This document shows positions 4,478-18,597 of a stretch of DNA of 60,634 nucleotides, in pieces. Each line of letters starts with the position of its first letter. The stretch's first letter is position 1. A model generated the notes under the pieces. That model did not search any database, was not told the DNA's origin, and saw only the letters and a list, made by a program, of their open reading frames with translations. This stretch comes from a virus (Duplodnaviria > Caudoviricetes). The DNA lies in IMG/VR virus record IMGVR_UViG_3300033142_002332, positions 1-60,634 of that record, one strand, 5' to 3'. The translations under genes and the position numbers were made by a program.

Positions 4478-7024
4478 ATGAATAACAGATTGCTTAATCC
4501 AAAACAGAAAGAAAATAAAATGAATAAAGAAGAGCTATTATCTTTAAAAAAAGAAGGTAAGACTAACCTAGAGTGTTCAAAGATTTTTAATGTCTGTAAA
4601 TCAACTATCTCCAATCATGTAATTTCACTAATCAATGAAGGAAGGCTAAAAAAAACAGAGATAGTTAAAAAAAAAGCTTGGAATGAAGGAACAACTAAGA
4701 ACAGGGTTAAAGTTAAGTGTTCTTATTGCAATAAAGAAAAAATAATTCATGGTTGTAGTTATAAAAGAAACGTAACAGGATTGTTTTATTGCAATCAAAC
4801 ATGCAGACAAGCTAATACTTACCAGGTTAGGACTTGTCAGTATTGTAATGATGAATATAAGGCTATTAGGGGATCAACACGTAAGTATTGTTCTCATAAA
4901 TGTTCTATGGAAAAAAAAGAACAAACGTTTAAATATGTTAAAAAAAGAGACGGAAGCATTCAAGAGTTTGATATAAATAAGATTATAAGGGCCATAGGAA
5001 GGTCTGGGAAAGAGACAGGTGAATTTGATGATGTAATTACTTCTCGTTTAGCGATTAGAGTTGTTAATCTTCTTGAGATGAATGTGTATAATTCTACGCC
5101 TGAGATAGAACAAATTCAAGATATAGTTGAAGATGTTTTATTAACCTCTCCTTTTAAAAAGACAGCTAAGTCTTATATTCTTTATCGTGAACAGCACGCT
5201 AGGTTAAGGGATTTTGCTAAGAAAGCTAATTTAGACCTGGTTGATTCATATCTTAATAACCTTGACTGGAAGGTTAAAGAGAACAGTAACATGGGTTATT
5301 CTTTACAAGGACTTAATCAGTATATTTCTAGTGAGATTAGTAAGAGCTATTGGCTAAATAAAATTTACACTAGCCAGATCCGTAATGCTCATTTGTCTGG
5401 AGATTTTCATATTCATGATTTAAATCTTCTTAGCGTTTATTGTGTTGGTTGGGATTTACAGAATCTTCTTAAAATAGGGTTTAAAGGTGTAGCTGGTAAG
5501 ATAGAAAGTAAGCCTGCTAAACACTTTCGTAGTGCTTTAGGTCAGATTGTTAATTTCTTTTATACCCTTCAAGGAGAAGCTGCAGGCGCACAAGCATTTT
5601 CAAATTTTGATACGTTATTAGCTCCTTTTATTCGATATGATGGGCTTAATGAAGAAGAAGTAGCCCAGGCAATGCAGGAGTTCATTTTTAACATCAATAT
5701 TCCTACACGAGTTGGGTTCCAAACACCTTTTACAAATATTACTCTTGATTTGCAGCCACCGTCAACATTGAAAAGCCAATCTGTTATTATTGGTGGGAAA
5801 TTACAAAAAGAAACTTATGCAGAGTTTCAAGACGAAATGCATATGTTTAACAAAACCTTTCTTAATGTAATGCAAAAAGGAGATGGAAAAGGAAGGGTAT
5901 TTACTTTCCCAATTCCAACTTATAATATTGGGTCTGATTTTGATTGGGACAGTCCTAATCTTGAAACTTTATGGGAAGTTACTGCAAAGTACGGAACACC
6001 TTATTTTGCAAATTTCATTAATTCTGATATGTCAGTTGATGATGCTCGATCCATGTGCTGTAGGTTGAGATTAGACCTACGTCATTTAGATAGAAGAGGA
6101 GGCGGCTTATTTGGAGCAAATCCTTTAACAGGATCTATAGGTGTCGTAACTATTAATATGGCAAGATTAGGGCATATTTCTAAAGACGAAAAAGAATTTA
6201 TTGAAAAACTTGATCATCTTTTGGATCTTGCAAAAGATAGCTTAGAGATTAAGAGAAGGTTGCTTGAAAGCTTTACAGATAAAAAGCTTTATCCTTATAC
6301 AAAGTATTATTTAAAAGAGATAAAGAAGCATTATAATCAGTATTGGTATAATCATTTTTCAACTATTGGGTTGATTGGAATGAATGAAGCTTGCCTTAAT
6401 TTATTTGGTAAAGACATAGGAACAAAAGAAGGCAATAAGTTTGCTGCGAAGATACTTGATCATATGAGGGATAAGCTTCTTTCTTTTCAAGAAGAAACAG
6501 GTAATATGTATAATCTTGAAGCAACTCCTGCAGAAGGAACTTCTTATCGTCTTGCTAAACTAGATAAAAAGTATTATCCAGAGATTATTTCAGCTCAACC
6601 TAAAGAAGGTTCTGGTATTAAAAGGCCTTTTTATTCTAATTCAACTCAACTTCCTGTTAATTATAGTCATGATATTTTTGATGTTCTTGATAAGCAAGAT
6701 AATTTACAAAAAAAATACACGGGAGGCACAGTACTGCATATCTTTTTGGGAGAGTCTCTTGCGCAACCTGAAAATTTAAAGAAGTTCATAAAAAAAGTGT
6801 GCGAAAACTATAATCTTCCTTATTTTACGATTACACCCACCTTTAGTATTTGTTCTGATCATGGTTATTTGAAAGGAGAGCAGCCGTTTTGTCCTGAGTG
6901 CAAAAGCAAAACAGAAATTTATTCTAGAGTTGTTGGTTATTTACGACCTGTTGATCAATGGAACGAAGGGAAGCAAGCAGAATTTCCTTTACGATCTCAT
7001 TATCAAATTGAGCATAAATCATGA
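4478..7024 (+). CDS. nrdD: Anaerobic (class III) ribonucleoside-triphosphate reductase with N-terminal HTH + Zn-finger extension
   Basis: ATP-cone VKKRDGSIQEFD; GDFHIHDL, VYCVGW, SMCCRL, EATPAEG, C-terminal CSDH..CPEC and glycyl-radical YSRVVGYLRPV. Confidence 0.95.
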   Translation: MNNRLLNPKQKENKMNKEELLSLKKEGKTNLECSKIFNVCKSTISNHVISLINEGRLKKTEIVKKKAWNEGTTKNRVKVKCSYCNKEKIIHGCSYKRNVTGLFYCNQTCRQANTYQVRTCQYCNDEYKAIRGSTRKYCSHKCSMEKKEQTFKYVKKRDGSIQEFDINKIIRAIGRSGKETGEFDDVITSRLAIRVVNLLEMNVYNSTPEIEQIQDIVEDVLLTSPFKKTAKSYILYREQHARLRDFAKKANLDLVDSYLNNLDWKVKENSNMGYSLQGLNQYISSEISKSYWLNKIYTSQIRNAHLSGDFHIHDLNLLSVYCVGWDLQNLLKIGFKGVAGKIESKPAKHFRSALGQIVNFFYTLQGEAAGAQAFSNFDTLLAPFIRYDGLNEEEVAQAMQEFIFNINIPTRVGFQTPFTNITLDLQPPSTLKSQSVIIGGKLQKETYAEFQDEMHMFNKTFLNVMQKGDGKGRVFTFPIPTYNIGSDFDWDSPNLETLWEVTAKYGTPYFANFINSDMSVDDARSMCCRLRLDLRHLDRRGGGLFGANPLTGSIGVVTINMARLGHISKDEKEFIEKLDHLLDLAKDSLEIKRRLLESFTDKKLYPYTKYYLKEIKKHYNQYWYNHFSTIGLIGMNEACLNLFGKDIGTKEGNKFAAKILDHMRDKLLSFQEETGNMYNLEATPAEGTSYRLAKLDKKYYPEIISAQPKEGSGIKRPFYSNSTQLPVNYSHDIFDVLDKQDNLQKKYTGGTVLHIFLGESLAQPENLKKFIKKVCENYNLPYFTITPTFSICSDHGYLKGEQPFCPECKSKTEIYSRVVGYLRPVDQWNEGKQAEFPLRSHYQIEHKS

Positions 7025-7614
7025 AAATAGGAGGATATCAGTCGCTTACATTGAGCGACTTTCCTGGGAATGTTGCAGCTATTGTTTTCACTCAAGGTTG
7101 CAACTTTCGTTGTCCTTTTTGTCATAATTTTGACCTTCTTGGAATTAAACCTTCTAAGAAAACATTTAATGATCAAGATATTTTTGATAACTTAAAGAGC
7201 AGGTTATTGTTATTGGATGGAGTTGTTATTACTGGAGGAGAGCCCACTTTACAAAAAGACCTATTTAGTTTTATTAGTAAAATTAAGAACATAGGTCTTA
7301 AAATTAAGCTTGATACTAACGGAAGTAACCCTAAGATAATAGAGAATCTATTAAATAACGAAAAATTAGACTATATCGCTATGGATATAAAAGCACCTTT
7401 TAGTAAGTATAATCAAGTAGCAGGCGTTGACGTTTGTATAAACAAAATTAAGAGAAGCATTGATTTGATACTTGCAAGTAAAATTTCTTATGAGTTTAGA
7501 ACTACCTTTGCAAAAGATATTTTGTCAGAAAAAGATATCTGTGAAATAAAAAAAAGCTTACCTAACGAAGCAAACTATAAGATACAAGTCTGTAAAAAAA
7601 TAAACAATTTATAA
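7021..7614 (+). CDS. nrdG: Anaerobic RNR activating enzyme (radical SAM)
   Basis: GCNFRCPFCHN CxxxCxxC, TGGEPTLQ, KLDTNGS; ATGA overlap with nrdD. Confidence 0.95.
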   Translation: MKIGGYQSLTLSDFPGNVAAIVFTQGCNFRCPFCHNFDLLGIKPSKKTFNDQDIFDNLKSRLLLLDGVVITGGEPTLQKDLFSFISKIKNIGLKIKLDTNGSNPKIIENLLNNEKLDYIAMDIKAPFSKYNQVAGVDVCINKIKRSIDLILASKISYEFRTTFAKDILSEKDICEIKKSLPNEANYKIQVCKKINNL

Positions 7615-7726
7615 TTATATTTAAATATTCTATTTTTTATGTTGAATATGTTGTATTTTTATGTTTTATTTATAACTGGTTTTGATAGTTAGCTAAATAA
7701 CAGTTTTTAATATAAAGGGGGTTTTT

Positions 7727-9091
7727 ATGGACAAAGAGAAAAAATATATTGTCTTAGTTCCAGGTCATAGTATAGAAAGTCAGAGTTTTACAATGTGGAC
7801 GAATGAATCAGAGTGGTCTTTTTGTTTTCGTGCTTGTACGTATATGAAAAATTATTTTGATATGAATTTTGAAAATGTTGAAAGTAAGGTAGTTGATAGG
7901 CATTCTACAGGGGAAGGGTATGCGAGCGAAATGGAGAAAGTGGGGAAAGAGATAAAAGGTTGGGAAAAACCTATTGATTTAATTTTTGAGCATCATGTTA
8001 ATTCCGCTAGCGGAATTGCTTTTGGTTGTGAGGGGCTTATAAATTTAGATGATAAAGTTAGTTCTTTATTTGTTGATGAGCTTACTGACGATTTTAGTAC
8101 GCAATTTTTAATTCGTGAAAGAAGAACTAAAAAACTTCCAGGTGGGGAGATACTAACTGATGGCGTTCTTTCTGTGAAACCAGGAGAGAGGGGTAGTAGC
8201 GGTTTAAAAACATATAAGGGTTGTAATTCAAAGGTATCTTTTATTTGGGAACCTTGTTTTGGGAATGAAAGAACCAAAGAATCTATTAATATTTTAAAGA
8301 ACGAAAATACGTATTTTCCTTGGATTTCTCAATATTTAGGGAATAAAGTGGGTGGTGTTTTAAAGCCTAATATAACTTTAATTGATGCGCTTAGGACTGA
8401 AAGTATTGAAATTACTACGACTCAACGAGTAGCTTCTTTAGAGCCTGACCCAATAAAGAATACTCTTTTAAGAGAGTTAATTACGGTTTATAAAAAGGCT
8501 TCTATAAAATTTAAGGCTTTGAAGGGAATTACGTTAGCCCAATGGTTATTAGAAAGTGGTAGGGCAACGAGCAAGTTAGCTGTTAATCATAATAATTTTG
8601 GAGGTTTGAAATATAGGAAAGAAATAGAAGATATTAGTGGAGAAAAAAAACGATGGTCAATTGAATATACAGGGAGTGATAATAATAAAGATAATTATTT
8701 TGCATTTAAAAGTATTGAGGAGTTTGTTGTTGGGTATTGGCTTTTTATTGGTAGGCAAAACTATAAAGGTTGGGAGCGTTACGGTAATGATCCTGTCGGA
8801 TATATGGAACATCTTTGTAAGTGTGGATATTCTGAAACACCAGACTATTTGACTCGTGTTTTGAAGCTTTTACCCGAGGCGGAAAGGTTATTATTGAGTG
8901 TTAAAACAGAGCCTTACTATAAGAAAGGGAAAGAAGAAGTTATTAAAGAAGGGGGTGAAAAAAAAGTAGGTCAAAGTTCAATTAGTTCTGGAAAATGTTC
9001 ACAAATTAAGTTACAATTTGATTATGAAGGTTCGAGAATTAATATGCTCCTTAACGGAGAGGTTTGTATATCATCAAAAAAATGTTGTTAA
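7727..9091 (+). CDS. Two-domain peptidoglycan hydrolase: Amidase_3-like + GH73 glucosaminidase
   Basis: N-terminal IVLVPGH...E...EHHVNS...IWEPCF amidase motifs; C-terminal TLAQWLLESG, NNFGGLK and GYSETPDY FlgJ/GH73 motifs. Confidence 0.8.
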   Translation: MDKEKKYIVLVPGHSIESQSFTMWTNESEWSFCFRACTYMKNYFDMNFENVESKVVDRHSTGEGYASEMEKVGKEIKGWEKPIDLIFEHHVNSASGIAFGCEGLINLDDKVSSLFVDELTDDFSTQFLIRERRTKKLPGGEILTDGVLSVKPGERGSSGLKTYKGCNSKVSFIWEPCFGNERTKESINILKNENTYFPWISQYLGNKVGGVLKPNITLIDALRTESIEITTTQRVASLEPDPIKNTLLRELITVYKKASIKFKALKGITLAQWLLESGRATSKLAVNHNNFGGLKYRKEIEDISGEKKRWSIEYTGSDNNKDNYFAFKSIEEFVVGYWLFIGRQNYKGWERYGNDPVGYMEHLCKCGYSETPDYLTRVLKLLPEAERLLLSVKTEPYYKKGKEEVIKEGGEKKVGQSSISSGKCSQIKLQFDYEGSRINMLLNGEVCISSKKCC

Positions 9092-9114
9092 TAATTAATT
9101 AGAAGGGTAATAAA

Positions 9115-10392
9115 ATGAGTTTTATTTATAAAGCTAGTGTATTTTTTAGTGTTTTTTTTGTTTCTTTACGATTGAGCGGTTCTCCTGAAAATTCTTTTTC
9201 AAGATGTTTTAGAACCTTTGACCCTGGTTTGAGTGATATTAGGGGTTTTGATTTTAGCCCTCGTGGCGATTCAATTGCATTTGTTGATGGTAGAGGGAGC
9301 TTTTTATCTCGAGATAATGTCTTTTCTAGTCTTGATAATAGGAATTTTAATCGAGTTTCTGAATTTATTTTTAAGCATGGGGCTCATGATATAAAGTTTT
9401 CTCCTGATGGAAAATTCATACTAGTTTGTAATGATAGAGGATGGCTTGGTTTATTAGATAATTCAAGTTTTGAAGTTAAAAATTTTAAAGCTTGGAATGT
9501 GGACTTTAATTTAATTGATTTCAGCCCCGATGGATTTCACTTTATAGCTGGGGGGGTTGGAAGGGATGAACATTTAATATATTTATTTAATTTAGAAGGA
9601 GAGGTGATAAGGATTTTTAAGGGACATTCTGGCAAGATAACAAGGCTCAAATATAGCCCAGATGGAAAGTCTTTTATTTCTGGTAGTACAACAGGAACTA
9701 TAAATATTTGGACTGTTGACGGTGAATTATTAAAGACTGTTAATTATGTTTCGTCAGCAGTATCCTTGTTAGATTTTCCAGCAAAAATTGTTGGTTTAGA
9801 TTTTTCGTCATCAGGTAAATTTTTTATGTCTTGTGATGCTTGGGGAGAAGTCAAGCAGTGGACTTCTAGGGGTGTTTTAAGTCGCGTGTTTCAATCTGAT
9901 ATTGAGGGGGTTGATATTGCGGAATTTAATCCTAATGGACAAGACCTTCTTATGGGAGGGTCTGGAAAGGTTGAATGGTGGAGTTCAGAGGGTCATTTAA
10001 AAGAAACCTTTAATAGGTTTGCAGGCCTAGTAAAAGACTTGAATTATAGACCTGACGGAGATGGTTTTTTGGCTTTATTTGAGAGGGGCGGCGTTAAGTT
10101 TTGGTTTTTAAGACCAGCATTTCAAACAAACCCTAGTGCTATAGCTAATATTTTTCCTACTGTAGGGAAAGCCCCCTTTACAGTATTTTTAGATGGTCTT
10201 GGTTCTCATGATCTTAATGATCGTGGACACATTTTGGATCATGTTTGGAAGATCTCAGATGGTAGGGTTTTAGAGGGTGGATATCGAAAACTTAAGTTTA
10301 AAAGATCTGGTGTTTATACGGTTACTTTGACTGTAACAAATAGAAGAGGTAACAGTGAGACAAGTTTTGAAAAGTATATTTTTGTTGACTAG
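9115..10392 (+). CDS. Exported WD40 beta-propeller protein with C-terminal PKD domain
   Basis: Hydrophobic N-terminus; repeated FSPDG / GHSGKITRLKYSPDGKSFISGS..GTINIW units; PKD signature G.APFTVFLDG..S.D...W...GVYTVTLTVTN. Confidence 0.85.
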   Translation: MSFIYKASVFFSVFFVSLRLSGSPENSFSRCFRTFDPGLSDIRGFDFSPRGDSIAFVDGRGSFLSRDNVFSSLDNRNFNRVSEFIFKHGAHDIKFSPDGKFILVCNDRGWLGLLDNSSFEVKNFKAWNVDFNLIDFSPDGFHFIAGGVGRDEHLIYLFNLEGEVIRIFKGHSGKITRLKYSPDGKSFISGSTTGTINIWTVDGELLKTVNYVSSAVSLLDFPAKIVGLDFSSSGKFFMSCDAWGEVKQWTSRGVLSRVFQSDIEGVDIAEFNPNGQDLLMGGSGKVEWWSSEGHLKETFNRFAGLVKDLNYRPDGDGFLALFERGGVKFWFLRPAFQTNPSAIANIFPTVGKAPFTVFLDGLGSHDLNDRGHILDHVWKISDGRVLEGGYRKLKFKRSGVYTVTLTVTNRRGNSETSFEKYIFVD

Positions 10393-10566
10393 TGAAAAAA
10401 TGTTTAATAATAAAAAATTACTTAAAGAAAAATTATTAAATAAATACCAAGGTATTTATTTATTGAAATGTAGTATAAAAAAGTTTAATAATAAAAAGAG
10501 TTTTTATAAAATTAGTAATGATAGTGCCAGGGTAACTATCATTAAATTGAATAAGGAAAAGTTGTT

Positions 10567-11151
10567 ATGATATATATTGTTATACAAAGATTAGTTATTT
10601 TATGTTTATTAGCTCAAGGGTTGGTTGTTACGGGCAGTGCTTCAGAAAAACATTTAAGGTTTTTAAGTCGTAATAAGCAAAAGTGCATTCATAGTGCCAA
10701 AGCTTATAGGTGCGTTGAATACGTTAGTAATAAAAGCGGAAATACGGTTAAATTTAATATACATGGCATAGGGGATAGGCTAACCGTTCATTTAACAGGA
10801 ATAGAAACCCCAAAGATAAAACCTAATCGTAAACAATCTAAAAAGTCTGAAAAATGTGAGATATCTAGGGCTAGAGATTTAAGCTATCTTGTTTCAGATT
10901 TGCTTAATAATGCTAGAGAGATTCACCTTATTGGACCTAAAAGGAGAAAGGGTAAAGCTTATATTTCTGATATTGTTTTTGATAGAAAAAGTCTAGTAGC
11001 TTTACTATTGATGCATGAATATGGTTTTATATCTAATAATAAAGATATAAATTGGTGTACTAAGCCTGAAAAAATTACTTATGGAAATAGTGTTTTTTTT
11101 GAATCTAAAAAGGAAAAACGTAGTAAAAAAGAATTAAAAAGCAACACATAA
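10567..11151 (+). CDS. Degenerate thermonuclease (SNase-fold) paralog with signal peptide
   Basis: Colinear with the next gene (RCVEYV, GI.TP..P.RKQSK.S..CE..AR, I.WC) but DGDT is SGNT, VRL is VHL, GIDTPE is GIETPK. Confidence 0.75.
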   Translation: MIYIVIQRLVILCLLAQGLVVTGSASEKHLRFLSRNKQKCIHSAKAYRCVEYVSNKSGNTVKFNIHGIGDRLTVHLTGIETPKIKPNRKQSKKSEKCEISRARDLSYLVSDLLNNAREIHLIGPKRRKGKAYISDIVFDRKSLVALLLMHEYGFISNNKDINWCTKPEKITYGNSVFFESKKEKRSKKELKSNT

Positions 11152-11171
11152 ATTAAAATGGGTAAGGTCAC

Positions 11172-11741
11172 ATGAACTATAGCAGCTTAAAAAGAAAATT
11201 AGTTAATATATTATGTATATTGTTTTTAGTTATGTTAGTTACAGGTATATCTAAAAAAAGCGGTTACTTAAAGAGCAATAATGGTTCATGTGAACATGAT
11301 ATTGTTGGATTTAGATGCGTTGAATATGTTAAAAATTATGACGGTGACACGATCACTTTTAATATAAAAGGAGTCCATCCCATTATAGGTAAGAGAATAT
11401 CAGTCCGTCTATTTGGTATTGATACACCTGAGATGCGTCCTAAACGTAAACAATCTAAAGAGTCTAAGGCTTGTGAAAAAGCTAAGGCAAGGGAAGTAAA
11501 GGATTATGTTGCTGGCATTCTTAAGAATGCTGATAGAATTGATATTGTTGATCCTCAAAGAGGCAAATATTTTAGAATTGTGGGGTCTATAGTAGTTGAC
11601 GGAAAAGATTTAACTTTTTTATTATTGAATAAAGGGTACGGATATTCTTATTTAGGTGGTGCTAAAGAGAAGATAGACTGGTGTTTATATTCAAAAAAGA
11701 ATATAAACAAAAAGGTCTCTTTAGTTTTTTATAACAGTTAG
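11172..11741 (+). CDS. Thermonuclease (staphylococcal nuclease family) with N-terminal signal/anchor
   Basis: YDGDTI, VRLFGIDTPE and GKYFRIV catalytic motifs; hydrophobic N-terminus. Confidence 0.9.
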   Translation: MNYSSLKRKLVNILCILFLVMLVTGISKKSGYLKSNNGSCEHDIVGFRCVEYVKNYDGDTITFNIKGVHPIIGKRISVRLFGIDTPEMRPKRKQSKESKACEKAKAREVKDYVAGILKNADRIDIVDPQRGKYFRIVGSIVVDGKDLTFLLLNKGYGYSYLGGAKEKIDWCLYSKKNINKKVSLVFYNS

Positions 11742-11761
11742 TTATTATTTTCATTTAAGTG

Positions 11762-12232
11762 TTAACATCCTGTGATATTAATTGTTGAATCTACGCCTAG
11801 TTTTTCAGTGCAAGTATCTATAATTCTATATGTATTATGAGTTTTCTTATATTCCATATATGTATCTTTCAACTCGGAATTTGTTCGATCTTCATAAAGA
11901 TCTAAAAAGAAAATATTTATGCCTATTAAACATAAAGAAAACATCATAGTGCTAGCTGCAACATTCTCTGTTACGTGTTTAGTTAAAAACATTGAACCTA
12001 TAAATGCCACTAAACTAAAAATAATCGATATTCCTAGCTTAAATCTTGTTTTGCCTACTTCTTCTATTCTTTTGATAAATTGCTTTTGTAATTCTATTCT
12101 CATGTTAGTTCCTTCGTTGTTTTGTTTTTGATTGTTTGTTGTTTTGTTATTCATTTTGTTTTTTCTTTCTTTGTTTGTTGTTTTGTTATTCATTTTGTTT
12201 TTTCTTTCTTTGTTTGTTGTTTTGTTATTCAT
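11762..12232 (-). CDS. Two-TM membrane protein with repeat-derived N-terminal extension; core start probably 12103
   Basis: Two hydrophobic segments; first 43 codons come from the tandem repeat; GAAGGAACTAAC-ATG at 12103. Confidence 0.65.
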   Translation of the reverse strand: MNNKTTNKERKNKMNNKTTNKERKNKMNNKTTNNQKQNNEGTNMRIELQKQFIKRIEEVGKTRFKLGISIIFSLVAFIGSMFLTKHVTENVAASTMMFSLCLIGINIFFLDLYEDRTNSELKDTYMEYKKTHNTYRIIDTCTEKLGVDSTINITGC

Positions 12233-12253
12233 TTTGTTTTTTCTTTCTTTGTT
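12132..12253 (-). repeat. 39-bp tandem repeat, 3 perfect copies plus partial; related copy near 12565-12605
   Basis: Unit TTGTTTGTTGTTTTGTTATTCATTTTGTTTTTTCTTTCT at 12132, 12171, 12210; on the minus strand it reads as purine-rich leader + ATG (MNNKTTNKERKNK). Confidence 0.95.
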
Positions 12254-12278
12254 ATTTGTTATAATCCTAATGCAACAG

Positions 12279-12587
12279 CTAAAAGTTCTGGAAAAAATAA
12301 AATAAAAGTCCTGGACAAAGTAGAATACAAGATAAAGCTAGAGCAATTGTTATATGTGTAACTATTTCTTCTTTTTCTTTATCTTTTCTTTTTTGTTCTT
12401 TCTCTAATTGTATTTTTATATTGACTTTTTCTTCAATGAGTTTGTCTATTTTGCTACCCAAAGAATTATAACCAAAATAAAATGATGAATTTGTTTCAAA
12501 TAGTTTTTCTATTTCTTTATTAATTTCAATTATTCTTTCTTGTTCTTTTCTCATGTTAGTTCCTTTGTTTGTTGTTTTGTTATTCAT
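12279..12587 (-). CDS. Small coiled-coil protein with C-terminal TM helix; core start probably 12554
   Basis: Shares AGGAACTAAC-ATGAGA start with the neighbouring gene; hydrophobic C-terminus. Confidence 0.65.
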   Translation of the reverse strand: MNNKTTNKGTNMRKEQERIIEINKEIEKLFETNSSFYFGYNSLGSKIDKLIEEKVNIKIQLEKEQKRKDKEKEEIVTHITIALALSCILLCPGLLFYFFQNF

Positions 12588-12611
12588 TTTGTTTTTCCTT
12601 TCTTTGTTTTA

Positions 12612-12690
12612 TTGTTTTCGTTATTCATATTTTTAATATACATTATTAAAAAAGTTTGTCAAGTAAAATTTTAAACTTTTTTTATTTTTT
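12612..12690 (-). promoter_or_regulatory. Promoter cassette copy 1 (leftward)
   Basis: Minus strand: A-tract, TTGACA-N16-TATATT, then ATGAATAACG; one substitution relative to the other copies. Confidence 0.85.
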
Positions 12691-12710
12691 TTAAAATTAA
12701 TTTTAAAAGA

Positions 12711-12788
12711 TTGTTTGTTTTCGTTATTCATATTTCTAATATACATTATTAAAAAAGTTTGTCAAGTAAAATTTTAAACTTTTTTTAT
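12711..12788 (-). promoter_or_regulatory. Promoter cassette copy 2 (leftward)
   Basis: Exact reverse complement of 13274-13351 (78 bp). Confidence 0.85.
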
Positions 12789-12863
12789 ATTGTTTGTGAT
12801 TATTTTTTTATTAGTGTATTATTTGGTTATTTGTTTTTAGATAAATAACCAAAGGAGGGCGAG

Positions 12864-13175
12864 ATGAAGAAAAGGGATATTATAATAAAGGATAGAAAAG
12901 ACGGAGAGTTAATAATGAGAATAATAGAATTAGCTGAAGAAAAGTGGCATGGTGTATTTTACGATAGACCAACAGACCATATAGGATATTTAAAGTTATT
13001 CAGACCACCTGACGCTTTAGATTTTAGTAATAGGATGAGCAAATTGAATTTTGTGAGTAAAGGAAGAAAATTAACTTATAATAATGGCGAGCTGTTTGTT
13101 TATTTAGATGGTCCTTTTCTTGGGATAGTTAAAGAGAAAGCTTTAAATAGCCTATCTTGTATGTCTAAAATATAG
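12864..13175 (+). CDS. Hypothetical protein enclosed by the 78-bp inverted repeat
   Basis: 103 aa ORF with strong RBS AAGGAGG. Confidence 0.7.
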   Translation: MKKRDIIIKDRKDGELIMRIIELAEEKWHGVFYDRPTDHIGYLKLFRPPDALDFSNRMSKLNFVSKGRKLTYNNGELFVYLDGPFLGIVKEKALNSLSCMSKI

Positions 13176-13273
13176 AGGCAGATTATTTGTGTGCCTAGCA
13201 TTTATTTTAGTCTAGGTAGCTTAGCTATTTACATTTAAAAATCTTTTCATAAATTGCATCTGAATATTTTTAA

Positions 13274-13367
13274 ATAAAAAAAGTTTAAAATTTTACTTGA
13301 CAAACTTTTTTAATAATGTATATTAGAAATATGAATAACGAAAACAAACAAAAGGAAAAATAAAAAA
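13274..13367 (+). promoter_or_regulatory. Promoter cassette copy 3 with leader/RBS, driving the ParA-type gene
   Basis: TTGACA 13297-13302, TATATT 13319-13324, upstream A-tract, AAAGGA RBS before ATG 13368. Confidence 0.85.
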
Positions 13368-14318
13368 ATGAATAGCAAAATAATTTCTGTGTTTAACCAT
13401 AAAGGAGGTGTTGGGAAAACAACAACGGTTTTCAATTTAGGGAAAATAATGGCTAATTTAGGGAAAAGGGTTTTATTGGTTGATTCTGATCCCCAATGTA
13501 ATTTGACAAATTTAACAATAGGCTTAGATAACTTAGAGAAGTTTTATAGTAGTAAAAAAGAAACAAACATTTTTAATTGTCTTGCTACTGTTTTTGAGAT
13601 ACCAGGTTTTTTTTCTAATAATTCAAATGAAAAATATATCAAAGAGACAAAAACCAAAAACATGTATCTTTTAGCTGGCAATGTTAGATTTTCTGAATTA
13701 GATGTTATGTTATCAACTGCATTAACTAGTAATAAAACTTTGCCTATTTTAAAAAAATTTATTGGTTCTATAAATAAACTTATAATAGATATTGTTGATA
13801 AAAATAAAATTGACATAGTATTGATTGATATGAGCCCTAGTATATCTTCAACAAATGCTTGTATCTTAATGGGCTCTGATTACTTCATAATGCCTGTATC
13901 TCCAGATATTTTTTGTTGTCAGGCTATGGCAGCGTTATCTGTCATATTTTCACAATGGCATAAGGTTTTTGAGCAGTTTAGGGGATCAAGCGTTAAAAGT
14001 CTTTTACAAAAGAATCCTCCAAAACTAATAGGGATGATCTCTCAGAGTTATATTTTTAATAGTAGCTCTAAAAAATGGTTTGATAGGATAATAAAGGTAA
14101 TGAATGACGTGTTAATTCCTGAACTTAAAAAAAATAATATGGTTATAGACGAAAGTATTTTTAGTAAAGTTGCAACAGAAAATGGTTCTTATAATCTAAT
14201 TAACATCCCATACATTAAGTCACTAGAAACAGAAAGATTTATGACAAAAAACAATAAAGAGTTGTCTGAAAGTATTTTTACAAGACTAGAAGAAATAATA
14301 AGTAAATTAACAGCATAG
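13368..14318 (+). CDS. parA: ParA/Soj-family ATPase
   Basis: Deviant Walker [31 protein letters not shown]; no ParB recognisable next to it. Confidence 0.85.
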
Positions 14319-14355
14319 GCCTTTTATTATTTTGTTAACTGATAGCGTAAGTAGC

Positions 14356-14454
14356 AAAAAAATAAAAAAAGTTTAAAATTTTACTTGACAAACTTTTTTA
14401 ATAATGTATATTAGAAATATGAATAACGAAACAAACAAAAGGAAAAATAAAAAA
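14356..14454 (+). promoter_or_regulatory. Promoter cassette copy 4 with leader/RBS, driving cheB
   Basis: TTGACA 14385-14390, TATATT 14407-14412; direct repeat of copy 3 with a 1-nt shorter leader. Confidence 0.85.
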
Positions 14455-15024
14455 ATGAATAAAATTATTGCCATAGGGTCATCAACTGGTGGAATAGCTG
14501 CTCTTACAGACTTATTAAAAAACCTTCCTACAGAAATACCTCCAGTTGTTATAGTACAGCACATACCTAAAGTGTTTTCTTTAAGTTTTGCAAACAGTCT
14601 TAATAAAATGTGTCCTTTTAAAGTAAAAGAAGCAGAAGACGGAGACGTTTTAAAAAAGAACACTGTTTATATAGCTCCAGGAGGAAAACAAACAAGAATT
14701 AGAAAAAGAGGATCCGACTTTGTTATTCTTGTAGTTGATGAAGAGCCTCATAATCATCATCGACCTAGCGTTGATATATTGTTTGACTCTGTAGCAAGGT
14801 ACATAAAAAATAGAGCAATTGGAGTTGTTTTAACAGGAATGGGAAAAGATGGAGCCAAAGGCCTTCTTAATATGAAAAAAGAAGGAGCCCTAACTATTGC
14901 TCAGGACGAAAAAACATCAGTGGTTTTTGGAATGCCAAAATCAGCTATAGCGATAGGTGGTGTCTCAAAGGTCTTACCTTTACAGCGTATTCCAAAACAG
15001 CTGATGGATTGGGTTAATTTATAA
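14455..15024 (+). CDS. cheB: Stand-alone CheB methylesterase domain (no receiver domain)
   Basis: IAIGSSTGG (Ser), VIVQHIP (His), HRPSVDILF, LTGMGKDGAKG (Asp), AQDEKTSVVFGMP; start set at the ATG after the cassette RBS (ORF track begins at 14404). Confidence 0.93.
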   Translation: MNKIIAIGSSTGGIAALTDLLKNLPTEIPPVVIVQHIPKVFSLSFANSLNKMCPFKVKEAEDGDVLKKNTVYIAPGGKQTRIRKRGSDFVILVVDEEPHNHHRPSVDILFDSVARYIKNRAIGVVLTGMGKDGAKGLLNMKKEGALTIAQDEKTSVVFGMPKSAIAIGGVSKVLPLQRIPKQLMDWVNL

Positions 15025-15042
15025 AAATGGAAAGTATAAACA

Positions 15043-15582
15043 ATGAAAACAGCTACTGAAGTAAAATTTACATCGTATGGTATGCCTATTGTTGTATATG
15101 AAATAATTAAAACTATTGATGGATTGGATATGACTATTTTTGATAATAGAAAGCATAAGCAGCTCGAATTAAAAAGGAGAATAAGAACACAGATAAGAGA
15201 AACAAGAGAAGAAGCCTTAAAAGAATACGCTAGCTGTTTTGAATTTGAAAGCTCAATAGAGGATCTTAACAAAGCCGAAATAAAAAACAAAATTGAAGAG
15301 TTTTTATCTTGTTATGATAGAATTTCAAAAGAAAATCTAAGAGAAATGGTTTTGTTCTTTGATGAACATCGAAAAGAGATAAAAGATAAAGTATTACGCT
15401 TTTTATTATTAGACGATCTTAGTGGTTTTTTAAATTACTTTAGAGAAAAAAACGAATTATATCTTGCTTCAAAAAAAGCTAAAGATCTGCATAATTACAT
15501 GTATAAGCGTTATAAAGGAGAGTATTATTGGTATATTAATAATAACCGTGAAGGTAATGATCTTAATTTAAGAGACCCTTAA
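15043..15582 (+). CDS. Hypothetical protein
   Basis: 179 aa ORF downstream of cheB; no motif recognised. Confidence 0.6.
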   Translation: MKTATEVKFTSYGMPIVVYEIIKTIDGLDMTIFDNRKHKQLELKRRIRTQIRETREEALKEYASCFEFESSIEDLNKAEIKNKIEEFLSCYDRISKENLREMVLFFDEHRKEIKDKVLRFLLLDDLSGFLNYFREKNELYLASKKAKDLHNYMYKRYKGEYYWYINNNREGNDLNLRDP

Positions 15583-15654
15583 AGGTACAAAATGAAAACA
15601 ATAACAAATAATAAAAGAGAGAAAAAATGGTTAATAAAATAAAGGATAAATTTT

Positions 15655-16035
15655 ATGTCTAATCTATCGTTAGAATATTGCAATGTTAAAAATAACATAA
15701 AAAAAGCATTAAAAGAAACAACTGGATATTACCCTTTTGAAAAAGATGAAGAACTATCAATTGAACATATGCTAAAAAACGGTGTTTATATCTATAAGGT
15801 ATTAAAAAAATTAGGTTTTAATGCAGTAAGGGCACAGTCAGAGTCTAGCTATTTAACAGAGTATCTAGAATATGGAGAGCCACCAAACATGAAAACACTT
15901 GTTGATAATAGGTATTTAATATTATATGTCATAGCTGGATATCAAGTATTTGACATACACCCTTTATTTTTGCATATAGATGGGGCATCTCCAGAGGAAG
16001 TAATTGAGTTTTTATTAAATCATGTGAGTGAGTAA
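15655..16035 (+). CDS. Hypothetical protein
   Basis: 126 aa ORF with AAGGA RBS. Confidence 0.6.
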   Translation: MSNLSLEYCNVKNNIKKALKETTGYYPFEKDEELSIEHMLKNGVYIYKVLKKLGFNAVRAQSESSYLTEYLEYGEPPNMKTLVDNRYLILYVIAGYQVFDIHPLFLHIDGASPEEVIEFLLNHVSE

Positions 16036-16076
16036 TTGTACGCATATGAATATTATAATAAAAAAATAATAAAGAT

Positions 16077-16376
16077 ATGAAAATAAAGGAGAAAACAATG
16101 ATTAAAGAAACGGTGTATTTAAATAGTGGCACAGATAAGCCTTTATCTAAAGAAGATATTTCCAATATAGCTAAAGATGTAGCTGTAAAATTAAATAAAG
16201 TTAAAGAAAAAATTTTAAAGTTTAAAGGATTACAAGAGATGTCGCCAGAAGCGACCAGATGTTTGAATGATTTTAAAGGTAATTTGTTGAATCTTTCAGA
16301 AAAATCTATAGAGTTAAGTGAAGAATTAAAGAAAGATATCTGTAAAAAAGGTATAATAAATAAAAAATACGCATAA
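16077..16376 (+). CDS. Hypothetical protein
   Basis: 99 aa ORF; AAGGAG RBS favours the ATG at 16098. Confidence 0.55.
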   Translation: MKIKEKTMIKETVYLNSGTDKPLSKEDISNIAKDVAVKLNKVKEKILKFKGLQEMSPEATRCLNDFKGNLLNLSEKSIELSEELKKDICKKGIINKKYA

Positions 16377-16574
16377 TGGAGAACTATAATTAATAATAAA
16401 AGGGGTATAGATAAAATAAAAAAAGAGTATCTAAAAGTATTAAGCTTTGAGACAATAGACTCATTTAATAAAGAAATCAGTTGTATAGAATATTTATGTC
16501 AACAAACGGAGTATATAGCGTATGAAAATAAAGAGGCTTTTAAATATTTAAATATACCTAAAGAATTTAAAAAG

Positions 16575-16883
16575 TTGGCTATTGATTTATTTATAGAATT
16601 AAATGAAGTAATTAGTGTCTATAGAGGTTTACGTAAAGAAGACATCATAAGATATTGTTTACGGCTTGATAGATTACCTGTGATAAATAGAATAATTCTG
16701 TCGTTTAAGGAAAAAGCTATAAAAGAAATATTAAACGCTAAAAACAAAGAAGACATTTTATCTTTAATGTTGGATTTTTTAAAAATGTCTTTAGAGTGTG
16801 GTTCGCTTTTTCTTGAATTGTTAAGTGATGTGTATTATGAAAATATAGAAGATATGGTTTTAAATTCACCTAAAGCTTCTTGA
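16575..16883 (+). CDS. Hypothetical protein, probably longer than called
   Basis: Frame is open back to 16377. Confidence 0.45.
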   Translation: MAIDLFIELNEVISVYRGLRKEDIIRYCLRLDRLPVINRIILSFKEKAIKEILNAKNKEDILSLMLDFLKMSLECGSLFLELLSDVYYENIEDMVLNSPKAS

Positions 16884-16908
16884 TTGTATATAGAAATAAG
16901 GAATTATT

Positions 16909-17274
16909 ATGCCCGAAAAAAATAACGTTATAAGTGTAGTTCATAATTTAAAAGCTAAAGGTTATGAAGATGTTATTGGAGACTGGGTAATGATGAGCAA
17001 AAATAAACCAAAAGAGCTATTAAGTGAAAAAGTAACTAACATATATGATAAAAACGAAACAACTCTTAACGATAGCAGTAAAGAAAAAATGATTAATTTT
17101 GATTTTAATATTAAAAGTGATAAAGATTATTCTTTAGTAAAAGATAAAGTAAATAAAGCTTTAGTTAGCTCTATAAATAAAGTCAGCAGTGCTTACGGAA
17201 GCGGAATTAATTTAAAAGTAACTATTTATGTAAAAAAGGAGTGCAATGAGTTTATAAAAAAACTAAAAAATTAA
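16909..17274 (+). CDS. Hypothetical protein
   Basis: 121 aa ORF with AAGGA RBS. Confidence 0.55.
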   Translation: MPEKNNVISVVHNLKAKGYEDVIGDWVMMSKNKPKELLSEKVTNIYDKNETTLNDSSKEKMINFDFNIKSDKDYSLVKDKVNKALVSSINKVSSAYGSGINLKVTIYVKKECNEFIKKLKN

Positions 17275-17312
17275 TAATTAAAACAACAACAATAGAAGAA
17301 AGGAAAATATAA

Positions 17313-17558
17313 ATGAATAAATCAAAAAATGTCGAAAACTTAAAAGCATACTCCTTTAAATGTAACAATGAGGTAAAGGATTTATATAAAAAATGGAGTC
17401 AATGTTATTCGCAGCATACTATTAGCAGCTTTTTTAACAGTGCTCTAATATCTTTTTTAAAAGAGAATAAAGATAAAGCCTTACCTATGTTTAATGATAA
17501 TGATAAGAAAAAAGTCTTAAGGATAATTCAAGACTTTAAGGAATTAGATCTTAAGTAA
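17313..17558 (+). CDS. Small possible ribbon-helix-helix DNA-binding protein
   Basis: Alternating strand AYSFKC followed by two amphipathic helices (...TISSFFNSALISFL). Confidence 0.4.
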   Translation: MNKSKNVENLKAYSFKCNNEVKDLYKKWSQCYSQHTISSFFNSALISFLKENKDKALPMFNDNDKKKVLRIIQDFKELDLK

Positions 17559-17578
17559 CAAATTAGTTATTTAGCATG

Positions 17579-17622
17579 AAAAGAAACTAGCCTGTAAAAA
17601 CTAGGTTAGTTTCTTTTTTTTT
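17579..17622 (+). terminator. Intrinsic terminator ending the accessory island
   Basis: AAAAGAAACTAGCCT / AGGTTAGTTTCTTTT stem (one G-U) followed by a T run. Confidence 0.85.
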
Positions 17623-17689
17623 ATAATCAGTAAGTTTCGTTTAATAGTCTAGGCATATATCTTATAATATTTATGTAAAAGAAAAACAA

Positions 17690-17992
17690 ATGATAATAAA
17701 AGGAAAACCTATGACTAAAAAAGATCAAGAAGATGAAAAAATAACATATGAAACAGACAACCTGGCAATAGCTGCATTTTTTGAGTTAAATGGCCTAAAG
17801 TATAAAAACTGTTGTTTAGGGACTGGAAGAAACGGTAATTCGATTGTTAATTTTGTTTTTGAGGATTCTAAAAGAATTGGTAGGGACCTTGAAAGATCTT
17901 ATAGAAATAGTAATGAAAAAAAATATAGGGAGCTATTGCTATTTTTTAGACATGAGATTTTTTTGACTAATAAAGATAAAAGAGGAAGCTAA
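17690..17992 (+). CDS. DUF5659-like small phage protein
   Basis: YETDNLAIAAFF...G...V.FVF pattern. Confidence 0.55.
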   Translation: MIIKGKPMTKKDQEDEKITYETDNLAIAAFFELNGLKYKNCCLGTGRNGNSIVNFVFEDSKRIGRDLERSYRNSNEKKYRELLLFFRHEIFLTNKDKRGS

Positions 17993-18354
17993 TGTCTCAA
18001 ATATTAAAAGGTGTTACAGAAAAAAGAGGAATTGATAGAATAATAAACGTTGAACACAATGATGCTGCTGGAGCTAAAAAAGTAATACAATCTGGCATTG
18101 TTATTGGTGATATTTTTGGAAACAACTCTGGAACTGCTCAATTTATTGGAGAAAAAGCGGTAGTTAGAGCTGTTAATACAGACATAGCAATACAATATAT
18201 AAAATTTGGTGATTCAGGTGTTGCAGTTCCTACAGTTACCGATGGTGTCGCAATTCCTATAGGAGGAGATGTTTATTTAAATAGTGGTGATCAAGAATAT
18301 GTAAGAACATCAAGTAATAATGTTCAAGTAATTGTATGCCAAGATTCTTTATAA
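17992..18354 (+). CDS. Putative virion protein
   Basis: Beta-rich G/V/T composition; start of a structural cluster. Confidence 0.45.
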   Translation: MSQILKGVTEKRGIDRIINVEHNDAAGAKKVIQSGIVIGDIFGNNSGTAQFIGEKAVVRAVNTDIAIQYIKFGDSGVAVPTVTDGVAIPIGGDVYLNSGDQEYVRTSSNNVQVIVCQDSL

Positions 18355-18372
18355 AAGATAAGAAAAGATTAA

Positions 18373-18597
18373 ATGAGCATTGCATCAACAAGAGCTCCAA
18401 CAACAAAGAAAATAAGGTATGTTAGAGATAGCAAGTGCAGGCTTGTTGAAATAAGAGAGTTTGATTTTAATGCTGAGTTAGGAAACTATTGTCATAGCAC
18501 TGTAATAAAAAGAGATTCTATTACAAAAGCCATAATCGGTTCGTTTACAAAAAAAGAAGTAGTAGTACAACAAGATTTAGACGATACGAGTGAGTAA
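18373..18597 (+). CDS. Hypothetical protein
   Basis: 74 aa ORF within the operon. Confidence 0.5.
   Translation: MSIASTRAPTTKKIRYVRDSKCRLVEIREFDFNAELGNYCHSTVIKRDSITKAIIGSFTKKEVVVQQDLDDTSE

What the first reader, a model, noticed from the sequence alone, without database searches (positions are those of the whole stretch)
14356..15024. Phage-encoded receiver-less CheB methylesterase under a strong sigma70-type promoter: candidate chemotaxis-hijack system
Seen: a complete CheB catalytic domain (GSSTGG Ser, QH His, TGMGKDG Asp intact) beginning exactly at the domain boundary (MN-KIIAIG), fused to a phage promoter/RBS cassette, with no other che gene in the window. Established: the unphosphorylated receiver domain inhibits CheB, and the isolated C-terminal domain is constitutively active in demethylating chemoreceptors. 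Inference: early expression would strip MCP methylation, lower CheA activity and force smooth swimming or loss of adaptation, changing dispersal, surface attachment or Che-like signalling in infected cells. I do not know of a described phage CheB effector.
Basis: partly seen in the sequence, partly recalled or inferred. Interest (0 to 1): 0.88.

Follow-up and report, generated by a model that had tools for sequence, protein, structure and literature searches.

The report
Phage gene for unregulated CheB methylesterase
A large tailed phage from a metagenome carries, under its own repeated promoter, just the catalytic half of the bacterial chemotaxis adaptation enzyme CheB, so infection may switch off the host's ability to tune its chemoreceptors.

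Summary
Window 14455-15024 (+) encodes a 189-aa protein that is a full-length CheB methylesterase domain (Pfam 221.6 bits). Its Ser/His/Asp align with residues 164/190/286 of Salmonella CheB, and the model has the CheB fold (TM 0.95). There is no receiver domain and no other che gene in the record.

The record is a roughly 54%-complete SPO1-like myovirus. cheB lies in a 13-kb accessory island between conserved structural modules. It sits behind a promoter-leader-RBS cassette present four times. Its GC3 matches the phage.

None of the best 150 homologues lacks an N-terminal extension, and 140 have room for a receiver. The nearest are X-REC-CheB fusions typical of Bdellovibrionota, at no more than 59% identity.

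No other bona fide phage CheB was found in IMG/VR, INPHARED or BFVD. Three related phages lack it.

The most likely role is an unregulated methylesterase/deamidase that deregulates host chemoreceptor adaptation. Activity, expression, host and behavioural effect are untested. The scan has not noted a phage CheB on other DNA.

The parts
14357..14454 (+). Promoter-leader-RBS cassette, copy 4. It has an A/T-rich upstream part, -35 TTGACA at 14385-14390, -10 TATATT at 14407-14412, a leader, and AGGA at 14440-14443.
   Evidence: The 28-mer is exact in 4 copies against 0 expected. The four copies align. The site matches 11 of 12 consensus positions. The sequence was read.
14455..15024 (+). cheB-C: a 189-aa stand-alone CheB methylesterase/deamidase catalytic domain. 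The longest ORF starts at 14404.
   Evidence: Pfam gives 221.6 bits over the full profile. NCBIfam CheB models match only their C-terminal halves. PDB entries 1CHD and 1A2O match at E 1e-55. The AF2 model has pLDDT 96 and matches 1CHD at TM 0.95. The protein keeps 39 of 39 strongly conserved columns.
13297..13324 (+). Cassette copy 3 core promoter, which drives the ParA-type ATPase gene.
13368..14318 (+). ParA/RepA-type P-loop ATPase under the same cassette. No link to chemotaxis was found.
   Evidence: Pfam AAA_31/CbiA; phrog_164; NCBIfam gives generic partition ATPases below their cut-offs.
12738..12765 (-). Cassette copy 2 core promoter, facing leftward.
12635..12662 (-). Cassette copy 1 core promoter, facing leftward, upstream of ORF 12279-12587 (-).
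15043..17558 (+). Six small co-oriented ORFs of unknown function downstream of cheB. They may share a transcription unit with it.
   Evidence: The ORFs are listed. Pfam or PHROG found no hit at family threshold for any of them: the only match was a below-threshold Pfam SidC_lipid-bd hit for ORF 15043-15582 (17.5 bits against a cut-off of 27; other searches). The Atlas search of ORF 15043-15582 was uninformative. No terminator-like site was predicted between 15024 and 17578.
17578..17618 (+). Terminator-like hairpin with a T-run; the first on the + strand after cheB.
4478..17558 (.). Accessory island containing NrdD/NrdG, a glucosaminidase, a WD40-PKD protein, SNase-like genes, ParA, CheB and ORFans. 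It lies between conserved head genes and conserved downstream structural genes.
   Evidence: tblastn of 43 window ORFs against 61.4 kb of the related complete phage G001 gave 12 matches. All 12 lie outside 4478-17558.

Best explanation
This is a genuine phage accessory (host-takeover) gene. It encodes only the catalytic domain of a CheB protein-glutamate methylesterase/glutamine deamidase. It probably derives from a Bdellovibrionota-type X-REC-CheB lineage and has been resident in the phage long enough to take on the phage's codon composition. A sigma-70-type promoter/leader/RBS cassette, which the phage reuses for neighbouring accessory genes, would drive its transcription. The product would therefore be made by host RNA polymerase without needing CheA phosphorylation. 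Lacking the inhibitory receiver domain, it would hydrolyse methyl-glutamates (and deamidate glutamines) on host chemoreceptors regardless of signalling state. That would break the CheR/CheB feedback that gives sensory adaptation and lock the chemosensory output of the infected cell. Shown here: the domain, catalytic residues, fold, absence of REC, phage context, repeated promoter cassette, and rarity in phages. Inferred: enzymatic activity, time of expression, MCPs as substrate, the behavioural consequence, and the benefit to the phage.
For: - Family, residues and fold.
- No decay: the phage protein keeps 39 of 39 columns that are at least 95% conserved among 379 cellular homologues, although its best identity is 58-59%.
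- Phage context: 13 of 20 large ORFs hit PHROG families, including protease, major head protein, sheath and baseplate. The record is an IMG/VR virus record. The major capsid protein is 33% identical to SPO1-like phages. Conserved phage genes flank the island on both sides, in the same order as in a complete relative.
- Native regulation: the cassette occurs 4 times against 0 expected.
- Amelioration: cheB GC3 is 0.211, against 0.17-0.25 for 11 other phage genes. The loci around 13 cellular homologues have 31-65% GC.
- Origin: 0 of the best 150 representatives have an N-terminal extension under 25 aa, and 140 of 150 have at least 130 aa upstream. All 10 of the top 10 tested carry REC. In the careful tree the phage sits with three 480-500-aa X-REC-CheBs at 96/84 support.
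- Published biochemistry: passages of PMC8609364 state that deleting the regulatory domain activates CheB.
- A cell that works with a REC-less CheB: C. jejuni (passage of PMC3879368).
Against: - There is no experiment, and no expression evidence of any kind.
- The host is unknown, so the presence of MCPs in it is assumed. CheB points to Bdellovibrionota-type donors. NrdD is 70-72% identical to proteins named from anaerobic Planctomycetota, Krumholzibacteriota, Thermodesulfobacteriota and others. It was not found with this query in the five Bdellovibrionota genomes that have the best CheB matches.
- This is a single instance. There is no orthologue in any other phage, so selection cannot be measured by dN/dS.
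- CheBc of E. coli/Salmonella is less active than phospho-CheB, binds receptors with KD near 1 mM, and lacks the tether site. Effect size would therefore depend on expression level.
- The deeper position of the phage protein is not settled. An AU test on the quick tree did not reject placing it with the classical REC-CheB group (p 0.853), and the constrained tree was in fact better by 28 lnL, so that free search was poor.
- The promoter is a consensus match only. Promoter-like sites as a class are not enriched in this AT-rich region: 47 found against 39.5 +/- 7.3 in shuffles.
Confidence: 0.55

Rival explanations
1. The enzyme is active but its substrate is not a flagellar-chemotaxis receptor. 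It might act on a Che-like pathway with another output, such as type IV pili, c-di-GMP (Wsp-type) or development. It might instead act on a non-MCP methyl-accepting or glutamine-bearing protein of host or phage, for example to block superinfection or to change surface behaviour.
For: - CheB homologues serve non-taxis pathways. The WspE-WspF-WspR operon was seen in L085.
- Earlier unchecked notes of this scan report receiver-less CheBs in cellular operons without MCPs (e1-3054905, e1-3202589). I did not test them.
- No MCP, CheR, CheW or CheA-type partner is present in the record to indicate the target.
Against: - The nearest relatives are chemotaxis-type CheD/CheR-REC-CheB fusions.
- The protein matches NCBIfam's chemotaxis-specific CheB models at 254 and 237 bits over the catalytic half.
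- All strongly conserved CheB columns are kept, as expected if the substrate is still a receptor-type helix.
Confidence: 0.2
2. It is a selectively neutral passenger: a fragment of a host cheB picked up by illegitimate recombination into a variable island, with no role in infection.
For: - The gene is a singleton. 0 of 3 related phages carry it, and no other viral contig does.
- It lies in a 13-kb island that shares nothing with the relative G001.
Against: - The frame is intact and 39 of 39 conserved columns are kept despite more than 40% divergence from any known homologue.
- GC3 is fully phage-like, which implies long residence without decay.
- The ORF starts within a few residues of the catalytic-domain boundary and sits precisely behind the phage's own RBS.
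Confidence: 0.12
3. It is an assembly chimera or host contamination, so cheB is not really on the phage genome.
For: - The record is a metagenome assembly with a linear, incomplete contig.
- None of the contig pieces listed for the two runs bridges the promoter-cheB junction.
- All four CheB-like matches in the INPHARED collection are poor evidence. Two records are marked UNVERIFIED and hold bacterial operon DNA; the other two are a 2.5-kb and a 7-kb record that I did not open.
Against: - cheB follows directly on a 78-nt element found three more times in the same contig and nowhere else in the two collections scanned.
- Its composition equals that of the phage.
- Conserved phage genes flank the island on both sides.
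- A random join would not start at the domain boundary, and no REC remnant exists.
Confidence: 0.03

Closest known systems
CheB C-terminal catalytic domain (CheBc) of Salmonella/E. coli (PDB 1CHD; full-length 1A2O)
   Same: The fold is the same (TM 0.95-0.96, rmsd 0.7 A, 50% identity). The Ser164/His190/Asp286 equivalents are present. The phage protein begins about 8 residues after the start of the crystallised fragment. According to passages of PMC8609364, the laboratory truncation is active without phosphorylation.
   Different: CheBc is an engineered or proteolytic fragment of a two-domain response regulator, whereas this is a natural gene. It is virus-encoded and shares only about 50% identity.
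X-REC-CheB fusions (CheD-REC-CheB, CheR-REC-CheB; about 440-530 aa and longer) common in Bdellovibrionota
   Same: These are the nearest sequence relatives, at 53-59% identity. The motif QHIP..FS is shared: it occurs in 157 of 171 such proteins against 18 of 90 plain REC-CheBs. The phage groups with three of them at 96/84 support.
   Different: They carry a receiver domain (10 of 10 tested) and an extra N-terminal enzyme domain. They sit in bacterial genomes. The phage gene has neither domain.
Naturally receiver-less cellular CheBs, such as Campylobacter jejuni CheB
   Same: These are single-domain CheBs that work without a REC domain (passage of PMC3879368). A recurrent 193-194-aa family of this kind is also in the protein collection.
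   Different: They are not the nearest relatives: 0 of the best 150 representatives are REC-less, and the listed REC-less proteins are 47-56% identical. They are chromosomal and partnered with CheR and MCPs. I could not compare the C. jejuni sequence directly.
Phage effects on host motility and chemotaxis already in print
   Same: Passages of PMC10232697 cite a filamentous Pseudoalteromonas phage that enhances host motility and chemotaxis. So phage influence on taxis has a precedent.
   Different: That case is chronic infection by an inovirus, and the passages I read mention no phage-encoded che enzyme. This case is a tailed phage carrying a core adaptation enzyme.

Membership tests
CheB methylesterase domain family (PF01339) | Profile match above Pfam's gathering score over the whole domain | tested here: met
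   221.6 bits against a cut-off of 24, with profile 1-174 of 174 matched. The six-frame search gives the same result.
CheB methylesterase domain family (PF01339) | Catalytic Ser-His-Asp triad. Ser164 is named in PMC8609364; the numbering of His190 and Asp286 is recalled. | tested here: met
   S10, H36 and D132 align with residues 164, 190 and 286 of 1A2O. They are invariant in A2 and in the 379-homologue set.
CheB methylesterase domain family (PF01339) | CheB alpha/beta fold | tested here: met
   The AF2 model has pLDDT 96.0 and pTM 0.92. Foldseek gives 1CHD at E 7e-27, TM 0.95, rmsd 0.7 A, and also 6YMZ, 1A2O and 3SFT.
Canonical CheB response regulator (REC-CheB) | N-terminal receiver domain with a phospho-acceptor Asp | tested here: not met
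   PF00072 was not found anywhere in the record in six frames. The NCBIfam CheB models match only positions 168-353 of 357 and 153-336 of 340, and score below their full-length cut-offs.
Canonical CheB response regulator (REC-CheB) | Encoded with CheR/CheA/CheW/MCP partners | tested here: not met
   There were 0 matches each for MCPsignal, CheR, CheW and CheD in the record. CheA was not searched as a family. The record is about 54% complete.
Canonical CheB response regulator (REC-CheB) | Methylesterase/deamidase activity on chemoreceptors | not testable with these tools
   This needs an enzyme assay or a methylation band-shift in cells.
Phage accessory / host-takeover gene (moron-like) | Lies inside a phage genome, between phage genes, and is dispensable in relatives | tested here: met
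   The structural modules lie on both sides. 0 of 3 related phages have PF01339, and one of them is 100% complete.
Phage accessory / host-takeover gene (moron-like) | Own promoter, and expression during infection | tested here: inconclusive
   A consensus promoter is repeated 4 times. No expression data were available.

The most novel reading that the evidence does not exclude
A virulent SPO1-like phage, whose DNA is seen in hydrothermal-vent metagenomes, reprograms the swimming behaviour of its host. It does so by expressing an unregulated chemoreceptor methylesterase that erases the cell's chemosensory 'memory'. This would be the first case of a virus encoding a core enzyme of the bacterial chemotaxis adaptation system. 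It would mean phages can steer where infected cells go, for example by holding them in the anoxic zone that the phage's oxygen-sensitive NrdD/NrdG needs.
Probability: 0.35. Interest if true: 0.8.

Novelty: new variant of a known kind. Interest (0 to 1): 0.6.

Why it matters
Phage auxiliary genes are known for metabolism, defence and, in a few cases, motility structures. I found no report of a core enzyme of chemosensory adaptation in a phage. If the protein is active, infection would remove feedback adaptation from the host's receptor arrays. That would be a direct viral handle on bacterial behaviour: dispersal, position in chemical gradients, and perhaps exposure to further phages. The idea is cheap to test, because an isolated CheB catalytic domain can be assayed in E. 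coli chemotaxis strains. The gene is also a natural example of domain-precise capture, in which a regulated two- or three-domain enzyme is reduced to its unregulated catalytic core.

Tried and rejected
Genomic context of homologues. I asked look-up of encoding contigs for the context of the nearest and the stand-alone homologues (P0004, P0002, P0005). I therefore could not check whether short 'stand-alone' hits such as P0004, P0012 and P0066 are truncated calls at contig ends. P0066 is nearly identical to a Bacteriovorax locus in the tree.

Host inference led nowhere firm.
- No tRNA genes were found.
- ParA gives only generic P-loop matches in the five Bdellovibrionota genomes with the best CheB matches.
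- NrdD's named neighbours are Planctomycetota, Krumholzibacteriota, Thermodesulfobacteriota, Acidobacteria and others at 67-72%.
- NrdD was not found with this query in those five Bdellovibrionota genomes (the tool warns that an empty answer shows nothing).
- I had no handle for Campylobacterota genomes, so vent Campylobacterota were not compared directly.

Its best values were 55% identity (Nitrospira) and E 4e-65 (Gastranaerophilaceae, a canonical REC-CheB).

Trees. FastTree on 380 rows gave no starred clade containing the phage. The quick PMSF tree gave 87. Its AU test did not reject the alternative, and exposed a poor free search. Only the careful LG+G4 tree gives a starred small clade, and its bootstrap had not fully settled.

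Sequencing runs. Two hydrothermal-vent metagenome runs (two studies, possibly including the source sample) hold short pieces with 0 differences, including 14668-14818 inside cheB. No RNA holder was listed. No listed piece spans the cassette-cheB junction. Parts without cover say nothing.

Cassette elsewhere. The exact 28-mer was not found in viral contigs or metagenome contigs.

Downstream ORFs. Pfam found nothing for 7 of 7 ORFs between 16077 and 19083. PHROGs found nothing for 7 of the 9 proteins scanned, all but CheB and ParA. The Atlas search of ORF 15043-15582 gave no score above 0.81.

Literature. Searches found no paper describing a phage-encoded CheB. From PMC9448743, PMC10418309, PMC2577667, PMC10232697 and PMC10284932 I read only passages. 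Supplementary files were not consulted and could list viral che genes in AMG tables.

phrog_22245 (349 positions, 'unknown function') matches at 190 bits over its positions 156-338. So a full-length CheB-like family does exist in PHROGs. I could not inspect its members. Its length equals that of enterobacterial CheB, which suggests host genes at prophage borders, but that is a guess.

Complex prediction was not used, because no host receptor is known.
Full report
WHAT IS THERE

The longest ORF runs from 14404 to 15024 on the + strand and is 206 aa. It has three in-frame ATGs, at 14404, 14419 and 14455. The -10 hexamer of the upstream promoter (14407-14412) overlaps the first ATG. An AGGA at 14440-14443 precedes the third. 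I therefore take 14455 as the start, which gives a 189-aa protein beginning MNKIIAIG.

Pfam places it in CheB_methylest (PF01339) at 221.6 bits, E 7.3e-66, covering profile positions 1-174 of 174. NCBIfam's two chemotaxis-specific CheB models match at 254 and 237 bits. They match only over their C-terminal halves (168-353 of 357 and 153-336 of 340), and so fall below the full-length cut-offs.

Against solved structures the best matches are the Salmonella CheB catalytic fragment 1CHD and full-length 1A2O, both at about E 1e-55. Query residue 2 aligns with residue 156 of 1A2O. Hence S10, H36 and D132 correspond to residues 164, 190 and 286. S164 is named as the active-site residue in PMC8609364. 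The names His190 and Asp286 I recall from memory.

An AlphaFold model built on 22 sequences has mean pLDDT 96.0 and pTM 0.92. It superposes on 1CHD at TM 0.95 and rmsd 0.7 A, and likewise on 6YMZ, 1A2O and 3SFT.

I defined conserved columns on 379 cellular homologues alone. The phage protein keeps 26 of 26 columns conserved at 98% or more, 39 of 39 at 95% or more, 44 of 45 at 90%, and 56 of 59 at 80%. These figures equal or exceed the cellular median at every level. There is no sign of decay.

THE RECORD IS A PHAGE AND THE GENE BELONGS TO IT

The window is a whole IMG/VR virus record. It is linear, and CheckV estimates it at 54% complete. Of 20 large ORFs scanned, 13 match PHROG families. These include head maturation protease, major head protein, NrdD, endolysin, tail sheath, several baseplate proteins and DNA methyltransferases. 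The major head protein is about 33% identical to those of SPO1-like Bacillus and Listeria myoviruses, with 118 records matched.

Three IMG/VR contigs share a 46%-identical head protein. One of them, G001, is complete at 113.6 kb with terminal repeats.

I ran tblastn with 43 window ORFs against 61.4 kb of G001 around its head gene. Twelve matched. They comprise the protease, the head protein and one small ORF upstream, then nine ORFs from 17690 onward, all in the same order. Nothing between 4478 and 17558 matched.

So cheB lies in a 13-kb lineage-specific accessory island bracketed by conserved structural genes. This argues against a chimeric join. None of the three relatives has a CheB domain (0 of 3).

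cheB composition is that of the phage. Its GC3 is 0.211, against 0.17-0.25 for 11 other genes. The loci around 13 cellular homologues have 31-65% GC.

THE PROMOTER CASSETTE

TTGACA-16 nt-TATATT at 14385-14412 matches 11 of 12 consensus positions. The 28-mer occurs exactly four times: at 12635-12662 and 12738-12765 on the - strand, and at 13297-13324 and 14385-14412 on the + strand. None is expected by chance.

Alignment shows about 78 conserved bases, including an A/T-rich upstream part and a leader. The ParA and CheB copies continue through the same AGGA-containing RBS to ATGAAT. These four are the best-scoring sites in 11500-18500.

As a class, promoter-like matches are not enriched in this AT-rich DNA: 47 found against 39.5 +/- 7.3 in shuffles. 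The argument therefore rests on the exact repetition, not on the consensus score.

No terminator-like site follows cheB until 17578-17618. cheB may thus head a unit with six small ORFs. None of these reaches a Pfam or PHROG family threshold; the only match is a below-threshold SidC_lipid-bd hit for ORF 15043-15582.

That the promoter is early and host-RNAP dependent is an inference, by analogy with other large virulent phages.

NO OTHER CHE FUNCTION

Six-frame family searches of the record found no receiver domain, MCP signalling domain, CheR, CheW or CheD. The neighbouring ATPase under the same cassette is a generic ParA/RepA-type protein. I found nothing that ties it to chemoreceptor positioning.

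WHERE THE GENE CAME FROM

An exhaustive HMMER search of 1.84 billion representatives gave 34,645 hits at E 0.001 or better. The best was 59% identical. Word-based searches of 5.8 billion proteins gave no more than 58-59%, apart from the window's own protein.

Of the best 150 representatives:
- none has an N-terminal extension under 25 aa;
- 10 have 25-129 aa and are probably partial;
- 25 have 130-199 aa;
- 115 have 200 aa or more.

Pfam on the top ten shows REC in 10 of 10, an additional CheD domain in 3 and CheR in 2. Named members of this long class are Bdellovibrionota: Bdellovibrionota bacterium, Halobacteriovoraceae, Bacteriovoracaceae and Bdellovibrionales.

In 401 Bdellovibrionota genomes, 234 had a match. 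The best was 58% identical at 237 bits, and the open frames are mostly 460-500 aa. P0154, a 500-aa neighbour of the phage protein, aligns over nearly its whole length in two Bdellovibrionota genomes.

The motif QHIP..FS, present in the phage protein, occurs in 157 of 171 long-class proteins. It occurs in 18 of 90 plain REC-CheBs, 26 of 86 partial proteins and 7 of 32 short ones.

Three trees give the same five nearest neighbours, all 472-500 aa:
- FastTree on 380 rows has no starred clade holding the phage.
- The quick PMSF tree on 76 rows groups the phage with the five at SH-aLRT 87.
- The careful LG+G4 tree groups the phage with three of them at 96/84. That clade lies inside a six-row clade (75/90) and a 40-row group holding the Bdellovibrionota and long-form proteins (63/92).

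Against this, an AU test on the quick tree did not reject holding the phage with the classical REC-CheB group (p 0.853). The constrained tree had the higher likelihood by 28 units, so that free search was poor. I conclude that the nearest relatives are receiver-bearing, probably Bdellovibrionota-type CheBs. Neither the deeper position nor the donor is settled.

Receiver-less CheBs do exist in cells. C. jejuni CheB lacks the receiver domain (passage of PMC3879368). A recurrent 193-194-aa family with a constant N-terminus is in the protein collection. Unchecked notes of this scan describe receiver-less CheBs in non-chemotaxis operons. None of these is among the closest relatives.

HOW RARE IT IS IN PHAGES

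tblastn against 50,697 phage records found 4 matches. 'Pseudomonas phage Y1' is marked UNVERIFIED, and the match is the WspE-WspF-WspR host operon with a 335-aa REC-CheB. MT835847 is an UNVERIFIED 16.5-kb fragment with a 357-aa frame followed by a 699-aa frame, an operon-like arrangement. The other two are a 2.5-kb and a 7-kb record that I did not open.

Two motif-based scans of 2.9 million IMG/VR contigs returned 7 and 68 pattern matches. None was confirmed as a relative. The tool notes that the window's own record may be left out. Foldseek against BFVD gave 0 matches at E 0.001 or better.

PHROGs does hold one 349-position family of unknown function that matches over its positions 156-338. 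I could not inspect its members.

Five literature searches found no description of a phage CheB. Supplementary tables were not available.

HABITAT AND HOST

Two hydrothermal-vent metagenome runs contain short low-depth contigs identical to parts of the window. One is a 151-base piece inside cheB. These runs may include the source sample, and none of the listed pieces bridges the cassette-cheB junction.

The phage carries the anaerobic ribonucleotide reductase NrdD with a radical-SAM activase. NrdD's closest named relatives, at 67-72%, are from anaerobic Planctomycetota, Krumholzibacteriota, Thermodesulfobacteriota and others. That differs from the CheB signal.

Among the eight loci fetched around the best matches, the one around the top match has the lowest GC, 35%. 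This is only a weak hint. The host remains unknown.

MECHANISM

In the Salmonella/E. coli system the unphosphorylated receiver domain occludes the CheB active site. Removing the regulatory domain activates the enzyme, though less than phosphorylation does. The isolated catalytic domain binds receptors weakly and cannot use the receptor's pentapeptide tether (passages of PMC8609364).

A phage-made catalytic domain, produced from a strong promoter, would therefore demethylate and deamidate receptors independently of CheA. It would remove the feedback that produces adaptation.

In an E. coli-like wiring this lowers kinase activity and favours smooth swimming. In other wirings the sign may differ. 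Either way the infected cell would lose gradient sensing. The benefit to the phage is speculation. Candidates are holding the cell in a favourable zone, dispersal, or altering a flagellum- or pilus-dependent superinfection route.

I put 0.55 on the MCP-deregulation reading. Another substrate or Che-like pathway gets 0.2, a neutral passenger 0.12 and an assembly artefact 0.03.

VERDICT

The enzyme family is known, and receiver-less forms are known in cells. A tailed phage carrying a domain-precise, promoter-equipped CheB is not something I could find described. I rate it a new variant of a known kind, interest 0.6. The main limits are that it is a single metagenomic instance with an unknown host.

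Noticed in passing
window 4478-17558: The whole 13-kb stretch (NrdD, NrdG, glucosaminidase, WD40-PKD protein, two SNase-like genes, ParA, CheB, ORFans) has no counterpart in 61.4 kb of the related complete phage G001, while the flanking structural genes are collinear. It is a hypervariable accessory island between head and tail modules.
   Followed up: partly
proteins P0121, P0122, P0124, P0125, P0128; genomes G004-G007 and 401 Bdellovibrionota genomes: CheB in Bdellovibrionota is commonly a 440-530-aa (or longer) fusion with CheD or CheR placed N-terminal to REC-CheB. Open frames of 460-500 aa dominate the matches. I do not know whether this architecture has been described.
   Followed up: partly
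window 11762-12232 (-) and 12279-12587 (-): The two leftward ORFs begin with leader-like peptides (MNNKTTNKERKNK repeated, then MNNKTTNN...) that mirror the cassette leader. The leader/RBS module appears to be tandemly repeated inside or ahead of these genes.
   Followed up: no
window 4478-7024: NrdD carries about 150 extra N-terminal residues ahead of the ATP-cone/NRDD part. The core is 70-72% identical to NrdD proteins of about 719 aa from anaerobic bacteria.
   Followed up: no
window 9115-10392: A 425-aa protein with WD40 beta-propeller repeats and a C-terminal PKD domain sits next to the glucosaminidase, which is unusual for a phage lysis region.
   Followed up: no
L085 (OQ572403.1, 'Pseudomonas phage Y1', UNVERIFIED): The record contains a WspE-WspF-WspR-type chemosensory operon (CheA-REC hybrid, REC-CheB, REC-GGDEF). 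This is bacterial chromosomal DNA inside a phage-labelled record.
   Followed up: partly
proteins P0015, P0034, P0044, P0048, P0051, P0063, P0084: A recurrent family of 193-194-aa receiver-less CheBs has the constant N-terminus MIKTTDTIIAIG, seen in at least seven 90%-identity clusters from metagenomes.
   Followed up: no
PHROGs phrog_22245: A 349-position PHROG of 'unknown function' is in fact a full-length CheB-like family. The window protein matches its positions 156-338 at 190 bits.
   Followed up: no
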